From IMG/VR virus record IMGVR_UViG_2639762982_000006: DNA of 7,374 nucleotides, one strand, 5' to 3'. The stretch comes from a virus (taxonomy: Duplodnaviria; Heunggongvirae; Uroviricota; Caudoviricetes). Position numbers: made by a program. Shown one piece after another: positions 1,693-7,374 of this stretch. How positions within the stretch are numbered: the first letter of the stretch is position 1; every line of letters begins with the position of its first letter.

Positions 1693-4600
1693 TTAACAGA
1701 TTCTACGAGTTGTCATTTGTGACAGTATGCTCGCAATCGTAGTGATTACTACCACCAACTGCTAGCTTTCTTCTCTCTAGCTTTTCCTTCGCTTTGCAGT
1801 AAATCTTTACTTCCTGTAGAAATATTTCTATTTGCATCAGCCTCAGACTGAATTACATCTGTCTTAGCTGCTCTCTCCTTCAACTCCTGCTCTATAAAAT
1901 CGTTTTCTCGCTGGACACGAGCCGCTTTTGCTTGCAGTTCGAGTTTCATGCTTTCGAGTTGCAGCTTGCGAAGCTCATCCTCATAAGCTTGATCTCGCTT
2001 CTTGTCATTTGCTAGCTCGGCTTCTCGTTTCGCTCTACGTTCATTTTCTGCAGCAACACGCTGTTTTTCGCGTGCAGCAGCGGCAGATGCTGCTTTTTCT
2101 CTTCTAATACGTTCAGCTTGTGCTTGTTGGCGAATAAGTTCTTTTCTGGCATCCTCAGCTTGCTGCTCTTTAGCTCGCCCTTCATTTTCCGCTTGAGCAA
2201 TAGCAGCAATTTGACTTTGCAACGAGTTAGCCAAGGCAGTGCCTACACTAAACGTAGAAAAGATTAGAAATAAAATAATTTTATTCATAAATTATTTCTT
2301 TTCTGGACAAGTAGCATTTGGCTGAATTCGAGTTTCATTATCTTTAGTTGAAATAAGCACAGCAAGCCCCGTTGTAAACTGGCATGCTTTACCAACTTGA
2401 GTTGAAGTGAACACCTTAGTTCCTTCTTTATAAGTCAGTGAAACACCTTCAACAATTGTTTTATCACTAACCAAAGAACCAGCCGCTGCACCAAGAGCCG
2501 CACCACCAGTACCGCCAGCTACAGCACCCAGTGTCGATGTGCCTTTAACATTATAACCGGCAACGCCCCCAGCAACAGCTCCCAGTACCGCACCAAATGT
2601 CTGTGCCGCTTCTTTATTAGCTTTATTATCAACTTTCACTTTAGCTGGAAGCACAGAGATAATATTGACTGTCTTTGTTTCCTGCTTCGAATTCAATTGA
2701 GCGGTATCATAAACATCGGCAGCATAATCAGCACCGCTAGATTGACACCCAGAAAGAAGAATTGCAGATACAACAAGAGCGCATAAAGTATACTTTTTAG
2801 ACATAAGAATCATCCCAGAAAAACAAAAACCGGCGAGAAGTTACCACGAGAACGGAAAGTAAACAAGAATACTCCCATTGACTTATATCAATTAATCAAC
2901 TTTTTATAAGCTATCCCTAACTTATTGTGTATAGCTGAAAAGTCAGAGACAAGTTCACCATCTGCATTATTTCTTAAGTTAATAGTTTATTGCTAACTTA
3001 ATTTATGTATCGACTATTGATATCCATCTTAAAGTTACAATATCCATCTGCATTATTTTTCATCACAAATAATATATCTATTGCACGACACTAATCTGCT
3101 CTAATAAATTTGTATTTTTAAGTCGCGAATGCTATCTTTTTGCATCATATTGACCTTTTAATCGTTCAGGCTTATAGTTTCGCCGTCGTAGCAAATTCTG
3201 CGACCGGGTTTAGCAGCCTGAATACTTACGCGGACAACCGCAGATTTCCGATATTGCGGTATTTTTGTGTCCGTAAACCACGTTACGCCCGAATTATGGT
3301 GGGGCGTGATGGGGAGGCTTCGGCCTGCTGGTTTCGTAAGTGCCAGTCTGCTAACCCCGTCACGTCCTGCCACCTGTTTAGCAGCGGGTCGCAGGTTGTT
3401 TATCAACTTACGAGGCCGTAACTATGGTTAATGCCAATCCTTGCGCACGCCAAGAATTCATCTGGCGTTTCTATTCCTGCAAAAAACACCACTATCACTT
3501 CGTCATCGCAGCAACAGAAGACGAAGCACGCTCTCAATTGCCTGATGGCCCCTGCATTTTTACTGCCCGTTTTTCAACTAACTCGCGCAATTCACTTAGT
3601 TACTGGAACCTCCCCTTCTCTGCCGACGTTCAGGGGGTTTTATGAAAAAACCTCTCGTCACCCGTAATGACATAGCCGAAGCGATCGCCCTGCATACTGC
3701 CTGTATGCCGACACGGGAGATCCCCGGCGCAATTGCCAACTATTTCATGATAACCAGACGTTTTTATACCCGAACAGATAAGGCTGTGATCAACAGGCTA
3801 CTGATAGCCGAGATCAGGGATTATTTGATTGAACAAGGACGTCTACGTTACGCAACGGTGGCAGCAGAAATGAGAAAGGAGGCACATAGAATGACCAGTA
3901 ATAATTTGAATGTTAAAAAACCAGCATCTGTTGCTTCAGCTACGCCATCACCAGCTGTGAATGTTATCTCCAACACTGGAGACACAATCGACAGCCAGAC
4001 GCTGTTAAAGATGGTCAATGAAGCGCGTAAGTTATGTGGGGAACCAGAGGTTCGGAACAACAAATTCATCAAAAAAATACTCGACGAATTAGAAGGTGAG
4101 GACGGTTACACAAAAAGTGCAACCGTGCCGCCAGGTGGCGGTACGCCTATGGTTGTCATAACCATGACCTACAAACAAGCCCTGCGAGTCGCCGCGCGCG
4201 AGTCAAAAGCAGTCCGCCGTTCGCTGATCGACAAACTGGAAGAATTGCAGCAGGCAAACTCCCCTGCCCCATCGATCCCCCAAACATTACCAGACGCTCT
4301 ACGCCTGGCTGCCGAGTTGGCAGAACAGAAAATGCAGTTGGAACAACAGCTGGTGGCCGCAGCCCCTAAAGTCGATTTTGCCGACCGGGTATCAGCGGCT
4401 AATGGAATCCTGATCGGGAACTTTGCAAAGGTCGTTGGACTTAAGCAAAACGCCCTTTTCTCATGGTTGCGCCAGAACGGCATTCTCATGGCTTTTGGTG
4501 CGCGCAAAAACGTACCGCGCCAACAGTACATCAACGCCGGGTATTTCACGGTGAAAGAAGTGGTGCTGGATGATGAAAATGGCTACCAGATACGGCTGAC

Positions 4601-7374
4601 GCCCCAATTAACGGGTAAAGGCCAGCAGTGGTTAACTCGCAAGCTACTTGATGCTGGTTTGTTAAAACCAGTAGCAATAGGTTAACAAAAGAAAAAACCT
4701 GCCAGCAAACTGGCAGGTTTCTGAGCAGATCGTCCAACCCGATCTGGATCGAGTCAGAAAAATTTGCTCTAATAAATTTCGTTTTCTAAGTGCAAAGAAT
4801 CACCATTTCGAGCTGGTGATTGAAGGTTGATGCAAATTTGGAGAAAAAATGCAACAAACATTCAATGCGGATATGAATATATCAAACCTTCATCAAAATG
4901 TCGATCCTTCAACCACTCTGCCCGTTATTTGTGGTGTTGAAATTACGACCGACCGCGCTGGCCGTTACAACCTTAATGCTCTACACAGAGCGAGCGGACT
5001 CGGTGCCCATAAAGCGCCAGCTCAATGGCTAAGAACGCTGTCAGCTAAACAGCTCATCGAAGAGCTTGAAAAAGAAACTATGCAGAATTGCATAGTTTCG
5101 TTCGAAGGCCGTGGCGGCGGCACTTTTGCCCATGAATTGCTCGCTGTGGAGTACGCAGGCTGGATTTCTCCCGCGTTTCGGCTGAAGGTAAACCAGACAT
5201 TTATCGACTATCGAGCTGGAAGATTACAACCTGCTATTCCGCAGAGTCTCCCTGAAGCTCTCCGTTTGGCTGCCGACCTGGCAGAGCAAAAGCAACGGCT
5301 GGAGCAAAAAATGCTTATGGATGCACCTAAAGTCGAATTCGCCGAACGCGTTGCTACCGCCAGCGGGGTTCTAATCGGCAACTATGCCAAAGTGCTCGGC
5401 CTGGGCCAAAACTATCTCTTCACCTGGTTGCGTGATAACGGAATTCTGATCGCAACCGGTGAACGCAGGAACGTCCCCAAACAAGAATACATATCCCGTG
5501 GGTATTTCACCCTTAAAGAAACCGTGATCGATACAAGCAATGGAAGCAGGATTTCTTTCACGACTCGTATAACCGGCAAAGGTCAGCAGTGGCTTATGAA
5601 GCGATTGCTTGATGCTGGTGTGCTGGTGCCTGTCGCGGCGACGCGCTAACAGACGTAGTAAGAACCACCAGCATTGTAATGCTGGCTAAAGTCACTTTCC
5701 TGAGCTGTATAACGATGAGCGATTTTACTTTTTCTGGCTATGAATTGGCCTGCTTTGTAACACACTCCGGTCTATCCCGTAGCGCCGGGCATATCTTGTC
5801 GCAATGTGCAAATCTCGCGGCAACAACCAGTGAATACTTCATTCACAAGCCTCACCGCCTGATCGCGGCAGAAACTGGTTATAGCCAATCAACCGTCGTT
5901 CGTGCATTCCGTGAAGCTGTAAACAAAGGAATCCTGTCTGTAGAGATTGTTATCGGCGATCACCGTGAACGTCGCGCTAACCTGTACCGGTTTACACCAT
6001 CCTTTTTGGCCTTCGCACAACAAGCCAAAAATGCGCTGATTGAAAGCAAATTAAAGATCTCTTCAGCGGCAACCAAGGTTAAAGCTGTTCTCGCTAAGAC
6101 ATTGGCTTTATTTAATTTTTTATCCACACCCCCATGTCAAAATGATACCCCCTCCCCCTGTCAGGATGACGTGGCAATAAAGAATAAGAAGTCACAAGTT
6201 AAAAAAACAAAAAGATCAGTTTCCGGCGGTGCCGGAACGACCAGACTCAAAAAATTGACTTCATGGATCGCTGAGGCAAAAGCAAAGGCTGACAATCTGC
6301 GGTTATCCAAAAAACGCGCTCAAAAACATGAGTTCAAGCAGAAAGTAGAGGCGGCAGCGCGGAAATATGCTTACCTGAAGGACAAGCGTTCTCCTGATAT
6401 TGGCGGGATATCAAACTTCGATAATCTGCCGCATTGCATGACGGTAAACGAAGCTCTTAATGCGGTTTTAGCCAAAAATAAAGATAACGAACAATGGGGT
6501 ATACCGGCAGGATTCAGAGGGTGATAGATTGCTCTAATCTGGAGTCACCTGGCGTTTTCGGTTTGAGGTCGGAGATGCAATCTGATTTTTTACAGTTAGC
6601 GATCGCTTTTGCAGGATATGTTTGTATTGGCTTCTGTGTATACATGATCAGCCGAAAAATGCTTGTCGATATCGACCGCAAAGAACAAGCAGAGGAGATC
6701 TTAGTATGGATTTTCTTTGGCGCGGTCTGGCCATTAGGGATCATGTTTGCTGCAACATTTCTTCTGATGTGGATATTCACCCTTCCAGGTGATTTCTATA
6801 GAAAAAAAGCCAGACATTGATACAATCGTTGCGGGTGCTTGAGGCTATCTGCTTCAGGCATTACCCGAAAAGCAGATAGAAGAAAGCCCCAGATAACATT
6901 ACGCGTCCTGCAAGACGCTTAACATTAATCTGAGGCCATATCTATGCTTAGCATACGTAGATTAGCCTCTTACCGACCAAAAGGTCAAGGAGAAGCAGGC
7001 TATGAAGCAGCATAAAGCGATATTAATCGCTCTGATCGTCATCTGTTTAACCGTCATTGTGACGGCACTGGTAACGAGGAAAGACCTCTGCGAGGTACGA
7101 ATCCGAACCGGCCAGACGGAGGTCACTGTCTTCACAGCCTACGAATCTGAAAGGTAAGAGACCTGGCGGGGAGAGATCCCATAAGCGCTAACTTAAGGGT
7201 TGAACCATCTGAAGAATGCGACGCCTCGGTGCCTCGTTAAGACGATGCCTCGCGTTCTTCAATTGCGTTTTGTAGGCTGTCAGGGATACTGTCCCACGAA
7301 TGGCCACCTGTAAGCTCCAGATGACCATTTTTGTTATTCTCCACAACGAGTTAGTTCTTCTTTTCGGATCCGGC

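What the first reader, a model, noticed from the sequence alone, without database searches (positions are those of the whole stretch)
3095..4722. P1-type immI-like module: operator, promoter, c4-like antisense RNA, icd and ant
Element order and spacing match the P1 immunity-I region, where an antisense RNA processed from the leader controls the downstream icd-ant genes. Here an operator (3095-3111), promoter (3150-3178), structured leader, 73-codon ORF, 347-aa antirepressor and terminator follow in that order. This is a known architecture, but the particular flanking cargo may be new.
Basis: partly seen in the sequence, partly recalled or inferred. Interest (0 to 1): 0.75.

Follow-up and report, generated by a model that had tools for sequence, protein, structure and literature searches.

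The report
P1/P7 immI antirepressor operon, third c4 allele
This is the well-known immunity-I operon of a P1/P7-type phage-plasmid, in which a small antisense RNA holds back a cell-division inhibitor and an antirepressor; it is ordinary except that the RNA's recognition loop and both of its targets carry a matched sequence differing from P1 and P7.

Summary
The window is 100% identical to E. coli phage-plasmid pSvP1 (NZ_MN510446.1). Bases 3095-4722 are the true P1/P7 immI operon, not merely something like it.

- **RNA elements:** Rfam finds C4 RNA (70.8 bits) and its a1/b1 leader motif (55.3 bits), both above gathering score.
- **Proteins:** Icd is 96-99% and Ant1 90-93% identical to P1 and P7.
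- **Regulatory sites:** The operator, both promoters, the ATGA icd/ant1 overlap, the nested ant2 start and the terminator hairpin align to the annotated P1 features.
- **Flanking cargo:** The suggestion that it is new is not supported. Upstream lie the P7 upf50.0/upf50.5 genes. Downstream lie kilA, repL and hok/sok. More than 150 sequenced plasmids and several phage records share this arrangement.

The c4 b' loop (CGUAAGU) differs at 5 of 7 bases from P1 and 4 of 7 from P7. Both targets, b1 and b2, carry exactly compensating changes; the a sites are the P7 allele.

A survey of 114 related loci found 15 b alleles and 2 a alleles, with the three sites matching in all but one locus. On P1/P7-type backbones each b allele sits in a ~190-bp haplotype block. 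This allele is therefore a predicted, untested third immI specificity. It occurs in 126 PLSDB plasmids.

Verdict: known system, low-to-moderate interest.

The parts
3095..3111 (+). C1 repressor operator Op51 (Oc4)
   Evidence: Aligns to the annotated P1 and P7 operator and is identical to the P7 one. Matches the C1 consensus at 15 of 17 bases; 2 sites in the window against 0.05 expected.
3110..3138 (+). Promoter P51a (P2c4), C1-controlled, overlapping the operator
   Evidence: Identical to the annotated P1 promoter sequence.
3150..3178 (+). Promoter P51b (P1c4): TTGACC, 17-nt spacer, TATAGT
   Evidence: Identical to P1 and P7. It was the only strong + strand sigma-70 match in 2800-4900.
3172..3224 (+). 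Leader with two hairpins, the Rfam c4-a1b1 motif
   Evidence: RF03163, 55.3 bits against a gathering score of 46.7, E = 3e-12.
3210..3216 (+). a1 target site TTAGCAG (P7 allele)
   Evidence: Mapped from the P1 annotation. It is the exact complement of a'.
3224..3231 (+). b1 target site ACTTACGC (third allele; P1 has GTTAGTGC, P7 has GATTGTGC)
   Evidence: Its first 7 nt are the exact complement of b' CGTAAGT.
3236..3266 (+). Terminator-like hairpin and U-run between b1 and c4 (isrK-like 3' end)
   Evidence: Sub-threshold isrK match at 3185-3266, 47.9 bits against a gathering score of 50. Its function is inferred.
3298..3374 (+). Mature C4 antisense RNA (77 nt, by homology); b' loop at 3335-3341 (CGTAAGT), a' at 3348-3354 (CTGCTAA)
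   Evidence: RF01695, 70.8 bits against a gathering score of 45. Aligns to the annotated P1 and P7 c4. Folds at -45.7 kcal/mol, z = -5.2, with b' in a hairpin loop and a' single-stranded.
3378..3384 (+). a2 target site TTAGCAG
3406..3413 (+). b2 target site ACTTACGA, overlapping the icd Shine-Dalgarno GAGG (3412-3415)
   Evidence: The cognate b'-b2 duplex is -11.1 kcal/mol, against -3.4 to -6.4 for the four non-cognate pairings that involve the window's c4 or b2.
3424..3645 (+). icd, a 73-aa cell-division inhibitor
   Evidence: 70 of 73 residues identical to P1 Icd and 72 of 73 to P7 Icd. No Pfam family matched.
3642..4685 (+). ant1, a 347-aa antirepressor whose start overlaps the icd stop (ATGA)
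   Evidence: 92.5% identical to P1 Ant1 and 90% to P7 Ant1. Pfam KilAC PF03374, E = 5e-31.
3891..4685 (+). ant2, an in-frame internal start (264 aa) preceded by AAGGAGG
   Evidence: Aligns to the annotated P1 and P7 ant2. The sequence was read directly.
4695..4720 (.). Hairpin ending the operon (bidirectional terminator-like)
   Evidence: -18.1 kcal/mol, z = -4.2. Conserved in P1 and P7. The scan reports it on the - strand.
4745..4779 (+). Next operon boundary: promoter P53 with operator Op53, ahead of kilA-repL

Best explanation
Bases 3095-4722 are the immI operon of a P1/P7-type phage-plasmid (pSvP1) and most likely work as in P1.

**Mechanism, taken from the P1 literature.** Transcripts start at P51a, which C1 shuts off through Op51, and at the constitutive P51b. 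They carry the leader, c4, icd and ant. The 77-nt C4 RNA is cut out of this transcript; in P1 this is done by RNase P. Its b' hairpin loop and its single-stranded a' segment pair with b2 and a2 just downstream on the same mRNA. Site b2 overlaps the icd ribosome-binding site, so icd is not translated. Because ant1 is translationally coupled to icd through the ATGA overlap, and in P1 untranslated icd RNA is terminated prematurely, no Ant is made and C1 repression holds. The upstream a1/b1 copy is a second, competing binding site. When C4 is insufficient or does not match, Icd (an FtsZ inhibitor) and Ant1/Ant2 (which inactivate C1) are produced and lytic genes switch on.

**What is specific to this copy.** The a sites are the P7 allele. 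The three b sites (b1, b', b2) carry a third, fully compensated allele: ACTTACG paired with CGUAAGU. The predicted consequence is that C4 from P1 or P7 cannot fully silence this operon, and that this C4 cannot fully silence theirs. That would make it a distinct immI specificity.

**Shown versus inferred.** Shown here: sequence identity, the RNA-family matches, the exact complementarity, and the allele survey. Inferred: processing, repression and heteroimmunity.

**Confidence.** The 0.9 given below is for the identification as the P1/P7 immI operon working by the P1 mechanism. The separate-specificity part alone I put at about 0.55-0.6.
For: - **Source:** 100% match to pSvP1.
- **Similarity to the references:** 92-93% DNA identity to the P1 and P7 immI, with all annotated features aligning.
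- **RNA families:** Rfam C4 at 70.8 bits and c4-a1b1 at 55.3 bits, both above gathering score.
- **C4 fold:** z = -5.2, with b' in a loop.
- **Proteins:** Icd 96-99% and Ant1 90-93% identical to P1 and P7, with a KilAC domain in Ant.
- **Complementarity:** b' is exactly complementary (7 of 7) to b1 and b2, although it differs from P1 at 5 of 7 positions and from P7 at 4 of 7.
- **Duplex energy:** cognate b'-b2 is -11.1 kcal/mol, against -3.4 to -6.4 for non-cognate pairings.
- **Survey:** in 114 related loci, 15 b alleles and 2 a alleles occur. An extraction anchored on conserved flanks, independent of complementarity, found that b1, b' and b2 agree wherever all three sites were recovered (b1 was not recovered in 4 loci), with one single-mismatch exception.
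- **Mechanism in P1:** taken from PMC8198154, PMC12197685 and the supplement of PMC2864571.
Against: - Nothing was measured here. There is no RNA-seq, no processing data and no immunity test.
- The a sites are identical to P7, so partial cross-repression with P7-type C4 is possible.
- The host element pSvP1 is rearranged by insertion sequences. The pmgB homologue is cut at window 371, and other disruptions are reported in PMC6906374. The operon may therefore sit in a defective prophage.
- The terminator's U-run is weak on the + strand.
Confidence: 0.9

Rival explanations
1. The module is the same immI operon but has no new specificity. The shared P7-type a sites give enough pairing, so this element is homoimmune with P7 and the b-site change has no functional effect.
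For: The a1, a' and a2 sites are identical to P7. Calculated a'-a duplex energies are the same as for P7. Both a alleles are found with the same b allele in six b alleles, so a and b may act semi-independently.
Against: If b pairing did not matter, there would be no reason for b1, b' and b2 to stay exactly complementary across 15 alleles in 114 loci. Site b2 is the one that covers the ribosome-binding site. Non-cognate b'-b2 pairing loses about 5-8 kcal/mol.
Confidence: 0.2
2. The module is an inactive remnant in a degraded prophage. It is carried along with the plasmid but no longer regulates anything.
For: pSvP1 has IS-mediated inversions and disrupted morphogenetic genes (PMC6906374). An IS91-family element abuts the window at 1-370, and IS421 lies at the right end.
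Against: All ORFs are intact. Both promoters, the operator, the ATGA coupling and the ant2 start are intact. The three-way complementarity is perfect. The same sequence occurs in more than 100 other plasmids and in phage records such as SJ46.
Confidence: 0.08
3. One reading: a known immI module embedded in novel flanking cargo.
For: Relative to P1 itself, both flanks differ. There are no sim genes upstream and no rlfA/rlfB downstream; P1 and P7 homology ends at 6538.
Against: The upstream genes equal P7 upf50.0/upf50.5. The downstream 81-aa ORF plus hok/sok is present at 98-100% identity in more than 150 plasmids and in several phage records.
Confidence: 0.03

Closest known systems
Bacteriophage P7 immI (Op(c4)-c4-icd-ant1/ant2; AF503408)
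   Same: Same locus, gene order and flanks: upf50.0/upf50.5 upstream, kilA-repL downstream. The operator, P51b and the a1/a'/a2 allele are identical. Icd matches at 72 of 73 residues and Ant1 at 90%.
   Different: The b1/b'/b2 allele is ACTTACG/CGUAAGU here, against GATTGTG/CACAAUC in P7. There is a divergent patch in the middle of Ant (about aa 153-172). Downstream of repL, P7 has rapA/rapB, whereas this window has an 81-aa ORF and hok/sok.
Bacteriophage P1 immI (Oc4, P2c4/P1c4, c4, icd, ant1/ant2; NC_005856)
   Same: The architecture is identical, including every annotated site. Ant1 is also 347 aa. Icd matches at 70 of 73 residues and Ant1 at 92.5%.
   Different: Both the a allele (TTGACAG in P1) and the b allele (GTTAGTG in P1) differ. 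P1 has simABC upstream and rlfA/rlfB downstream.
Second c4-icd-ant module of the same plasmid (pSvP1 record 3926-5596, locus L186)
   Same: The 77-nt c4 is identical, with the same a and b alleles. Rfam gives C4 at 70.8 bits and a1b1 at 54.6 bits.
   Different: It has a palindromic (bivalent) C1 operator. Its Icd is 82% identical. Its antirepressor is 372 aa and 55% identical, with a different N-terminal and middle part. It lies in a different genomic location, the RD-1 region of PMC6906374.
Salmonella Gifsy-1 IsrK / anrP leader (Rfam RF01394)
   Same: The leader at 3185-3266 matches the isrK model along its full length: two hairpins plus a terminator hairpin, upstream of an antirepressor operon.
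   Different: The score of 47.9 bits is below the gathering score of 50. No short leader RNA has been shown for this element, and the resemblance was not followed up.

Membership tests
P1/P7 immI operon | A C1 operator (Op51) overlapping a promoter, plus a second constitutive promoter (P51b) upstream of c4 | tested here: met
   Features at 3095-3111, 3110-3138 and 3150-3178 are identical or nearly identical to the annotated P1 and P7 features.
P1/P7 immI operon | A c4 antisense RNA with the C4 family fold | tested here: met
   RF01695, 70.8 bits against a gathering score of 45. Minimum free energy -45.7 kcal/mol, z = -5.2.
P1/P7 immI operon | a' and b' are complementary to a1/b1 upstream and a2/b2 downstream, with b2 over the icd ribosome-binding site | tested here: met
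   Exact 7-nt complements lie at offsets conserved with P1. Site b2 at 3406-3413 overlaps GAGG at 3412-3415.
P1/P7 immI operon | icd (73 aa) followed by translationally coupled ant1 with a nested in-frame ant2 | tested here: met
   ORFs at 3424-3645, 3642-4685 and 3891-4685, with the ATGA overlap. Icd is 96-99% and Ant1 90-93% identical to P1 and P7.
P1/P7 immI operon | C4 is released from the precursor by RNase P, and repression acts through blocked icd translation with premature termination | not testable with these tools
   This is known for P1 from the literature (my own knowledge, plus PMC8198154). Here only the conserved sequence, including the 3' GCCACC, can be shown.
P1/P7 immI operon | Ant1/Ant2 bind and inactivate the C1 repressor | not testable with these tools
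   Only homology (90-93%) and the KilAC domain are shown.
P1 immunity specificity / P7 immunity specificity (immI type) | The a and b recognition sequences are the same as in the reference phage | tested here: not met
   The a allele equals P7. The b allele differs from both, at 5 of 7 positions against P1 and 4 of 7 against P7. The copy therefore belongs to the operon family but to neither reference specificity type.
hok/sok type I toxin-antitoxin (flank, not part of immI) | A Sok RNA / hok mRNA fold together with a Hok peptide | tested here: met
   RF01794, 114.9 bits at 6833-7007. PF01848, E = 1e-21, for 7002-7157.

The most novel reading that the evidence does not exclude
The c4 b' loop with its two targets acts as a swappable address label.

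- Among P1-, D6- and more distantly related icd-ant modules there are at least 15 b alleles and 2 a alleles.
- On P1/P7-type backbones each b allele sits in a ~190-bp haplotype block running from b1 to b2, and that block recombines independently of the downstream icd/ant cargo.
- This could define many mutually non-repressing immI groups rather than the classical two.
- The window's allele would be a third group, commoner in PLSDB (126 plasmids) than P1's own allele (86).
- In pSvP1 a single C4 species would control two different antirepressor operons.

I found no paper in the searchable library that catalogues these alleles. That is not proof that none exists.
Probability: 0.55. Interest if true: 0.5.

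Novelty: already known. Interest (0 to 1): 0.25.

Why it matters
As a module it adds nothing new: it is the textbook P1/P7 immI operon in an already published plasmid.

Its modest value lies in the c4 recognition sites.
- The compensated three-site change, and the allele series found around it, are clean natural evidence that the C4-target pairing is under selection.
- They suggest that P1-like phage-plasmids, which are important carriers of resistance genes in E. coli and Salmonella, fall into many more immI immunity groups than the two studied experimentally.
- If so, the groups would affect which of these elements can coexist in, or superinfect, one cell.
- The c4 RNA was not annotated under the match in any of the phage records checked.

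Tried and rejected
- **Wrong spacer in the first scans.** My first pattern scan used a 7-N spacer (GCTGGTTTC N7 GCCAGTCTG). P1-type c4 has 6 variable bases there. The viral-contig scan therefore found only 11 loci: 10 more distant relatives, which turned out to be useful, and one (L003) that looks like a chance match.
- **Wasted genome scan.** I did not use them.
- **Noisy a'-a energies.** RNAduplex values for a'-a pairings are unreliable because the short a' oligo finds alternative partners in the target, for example -10.9 kcal/mol for the window c4 on the P1 target. I rely only on the b'-b values and on direct complementarity.
- **Papers.** The P1 genome paper (PMC523184) is not held. Four literature searches for a description of c4 allele diversity in P1-like plasmids found nothing relevant.
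- **Chance Rfam hits.** The weak matches to Six3os1_7, ceN48, mir-1231, ctRNA_p42d and mir-10 are far below gathering score and were dismissed as chance.
- **Novel flanking cargo.** This idea was rejected.
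Full report
**What the window is.** A megablast of the whole window finds a 100% match over 1-7374 to E. coli plasmid pSvP1_F (NZ_MN510446.1, 139,066 bp). More than 150 other PLSDB plasmids cover at least 80% of the window, and the top-listed ones are 98-100% identical over 371-7374. Among phage records, 'Punavirus P1' MH422554 matches at 98.9% over 371-7180. P7 and P1 match from 371 to 6538, at 98.3% and 96.9% over their aligned pieces. pSvP1 is a P1-like phage-plasmid from a porcine ETEC strain, described by Venturini et al. 2019 (PMC6906374). The window is therefore a stretch of a P1/P7-type genome.

Gene order in the window:
- an IS91-family end at 1-370;
- tub and pmgC homologues on the minus strand;
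- the P7 upf50.0 (DUF5384) and upf50.5 (lipoprotein) genes on the minus strand;
- immI;
- kilA, then repL;
- an 81-aa ORF;
- hok/sok;
- the start of IS421.

**Checking the observation.** I aligned 3060-4800 to the annotated P1 (NC_005856) and P7 (AF503408) genomes and carried their annotation across.

- Op51/Oc4 lies at 3095-3111. It is identical to the P7 operator and matches the consensus at 15 of 17 bases. Only two such sites occur in the window, against 0.05 expected.
- P51b lies at 3150-3178 and is identical to P1 and P7. It is the only strong + strand sigma-70 match in the region.
- icd is 3424-3645 (73 codons) and ant1 is 3642-4685 (347 codons).
- A conserved hairpin lies at 4695-4720 (-18.1 kcal/mol, z = -4.2).
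By homology it is 3298-3374.

C4 (RF01695) scores 70.8 bits against a gathering score of 45 at 3292-3377. The a1/b1 leader motif (RF03163) scores 55.3 bits against 46.7 at 3172-3224. The 77-nt RNA folds at -45.7 kcal/mol (z = -5.2), with b' in a hairpin loop and a' in a single-stranded stretch.

The protein test is equally clear. Icd is identical to P1 at 70 of 73 residues and to P7 at 72 of 73. Ant1 is 92.5% identical to P1 and 90% to P7. The differences are concentrated in the N-terminal part of the Ant2 portion, with a patch at about aa 153-172 that resembles neither reference. Ant carries a KilAC domain (PF03374, E = 5e-31).

**How it works.** The mechanism below is taken from P1 and not tested here. 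C1 represses P51a through Op51, while P51b is constitutive. The transcript contains the leader, c4, icd and ant. C4 is excised and pairs through a' and b' with a2 and b2 on the mRNA. Site b2 overlaps the icd Shine-Dalgarno sequence, so icd is not translated and the coupled ant1/ant2 genes stay silent (PMC8198154; PMC12197685; supplement of PMC2864571). The RNase P processing of C4 and the premature termination in untranslated icd RNA are from my own knowledge of the P1 literature. I could not retrieve those papers.

The sequence requirements for this mechanism are all present:
- b2 (3406-3413) overlaps GAGG (3412-3415), which lies 8 nt before the ATG;
- the icd stop and the ant1 start overlap as ATGA;
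- ant2 is in frame with ant1.

**What is particular to this copy.** The a sites (a1 3210-3216, a' 3348-3354, a2 3378-3384) carry the P7 allele, TTAGCAG/CUGCUAA. The b sites carry a third allele:
- b1 ACTTACG(C) at 3224-3231;
- b' CGUAAGU at 3335-3341;
- b2 ACTTACG(A) at 3406-3413.

P1 has GTTAGTG and P7 has GATTGTG at these positions. That is 5 of 7 changes against P1 and 4 of 7 against P7, at each of three sites spread over 190 bp, and all are exactly compensating. The computed b'-b2 duplex is -11.1 kcal/mol for the cognate pair. It is -3.4 to -6.4 for the four non-cognate pairings that involve the window's c4 or b2.

**Is the compensation more than chance? A survey.** Of the c4 copies in these and in the reference loci (window, P1, P7 and the pSvP1 second module), 114 had complete flanks.

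I extracted b1, b2, a1 and a2 by conserved anchors, independently of complementarity. The result was 15 b alleles and 2 a alleles. The b1 site, the reverse complement of b' and the b2 site agreed wherever all three were recovered (the anchor pattern missed b1 in 4 loci). The single exception, L004, has one mismatch. The window's combination is the second most frequent in that sample. Exact 30-mers spanning b' and a' count 126 PLSDB plasmids for this type, 86 for the P1 type and 192 for the P7 type. The same 30-mer also occurs in phage records MH422554, MH445380/1 and Salmonella phage SJ46, and no record annotates an RNA there.

**How the allele moves.**
- Plasmid p1540-3 has the same backbone as the window, with 73 differences in 7 kb. 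Of these, 23 lie in 3200-3499, all between about 3224 and 3412, and p1540-3 carries the P7 b allele.
- Within that patch the window shares most of its linked SNPs (3241, 3280, 3291, 3390 and 3401-3412) with a second c4-icd-ant module of pSvP1. Outside the patch it matches P7 and p1540-3.
- A SNP matrix of 46 unique P1/P7-type sequences shows that each b allele sits on its own haplotype block between b1 and b2, while the flanking SNPs assort freely.
- Conversely, the same b allele is found with icd genes that are about 98%, 79% and 68% identical to the window's.

The specificity therefore behaves as a small recombination cassette.

**The second module.** pSvP1 record 3926-5596 holds another operator-c4-icd-ant unit. 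Its 77-nt c4 is identical and it has the same a and b alleles. It differs in having a palindromic double operator (ATTGCTCTAATAAATTTGATTTATTAGAGCAAT), an Icd that is 82% identical, and a 372-aa antirepressor that is 55% identical. Either C4 copy should therefore repress both operons. This is an inference.

**The flanking cargo.**
- The upstream genes are P7's.
- The segment after repL replaces P1 rlfA/rlfB and P7 rapA/rapB. It holds an 81-aa ORF and hok/sok, with Rfam sok at 114.9 bits and Pfam Hok at E = 1e-21.
- This arrangement is shared at 98-100% identity with many plasmids and phages.
- Homology to P1 and P7 ends at 6538, inside the Op55-like sequence ATTGCTCTAAT.

**Verdict.** The main interpretation is correct and understated, because this is the immI locus itself. 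The suggestion of novel cargo is wrong. The system is already known.

The only feature of some interest is the third, fully compensated c4 b allele and the allele series it belongs to. That series predicts more immI immunity groups than the two characterised. I rate that prediction at roughly 55% likely to hold functionally. The main doubt is partial cross-repression through the shared P7 a sites. Overall interest is 0.25.

Noticed in passing
window 6833-7157: A complete hok/sok type I toxin-antitoxin locus: Rfam sok at 114.9 bits and a 51-aa Hok ORF matching PF01848. With an 81-aa ORF of unknown function (6575-6820), it replaces the rlfA/rlfB (rapA/rapB) genes that follow repL in P1 and P7.
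   Followed up: partly
L186 3926-5596 (pSvP1 record coordinates 3926-5596): The same plasmid holds a second operator-c4-icd-ant module. Its C4 RNA and its a and b alleles are identical, but it has a palindromic double C1 operator and a different 372-aa antirepressor. One C4 species would control two antirepressor operons.
   Followed up: partly
window 3185-3266: The leader matches the Salmonella Gifsy-1 isrK model along its full length but just below threshold (47.9 bits against 50). It ends in a hairpin plus U-run between b1 and c4. A short IsrK-like leader RNA, or an attenuation point upstream of c4, may therefore exist.
   Followed up: no
window 3210-3413 and loci L065-L184: Both a alleles occur with the same b allele for six different b alleles. 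Yet the sites are interleaved on the DNA in the order a1, b1, b', a', a2, b2. Re-assorting a against b therefore needs two separate exchanged patches or tolerated intermediates. I have no explanation.
   Followed up: no
window 2292-2813 (minus strand): The Upf50.5-type lipoprotein sits where P1 has the sim superinfection-exclusion genes. It has a weak, sub-threshold similarity to the TraT surface-exclusion lipoprotein (23.1 bits against a cut-off of 31).
   Followed up: no
window 4054-4160 (Ant1 aa ~140-172): A short mosaic patch in the middle of ant1/ant2 resembles neither P1 nor P7, while both flanks are nearly identical to them. This may be a hypervariable surface of the antirepressor.
   Followed up: no
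window 6527-6543: Homology to P1 and P7 stops at 6538, inside the Op55-like operator (ATTGCTCTAAT, then divergence). The junction of the replaced downstream segment therefore lies within a C1 operator.
   Followed up: no
window 1-370 and 7351-7374: The P1-type sequence is bounded by insertion sequences. The 3' end of an IS91-family transposase gene and element (ISEc84 according to PMC6906374) cuts the pmgB side at 371. IS421 begins at the right edge.
   Followed up: partly
L004 (IMGVR_UViG_2734482779_000006): This is the only locus of 114 in which b2 (GAATTG) departs by one base from b1 and b' (AAATTG). It may be an evolutionary intermediate or a sequencing error.
   Followed up: no
window 4849-5649 versus 3642-4685: The C-terminal halves of KilA and Ant1 are paralogous KilAC domains, with the shared motif PQ(T/S)LPEALRLAA..LAEQK. 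The two adjacent C1-controlled operons therefore encode related effector domains.
   Followed up: no
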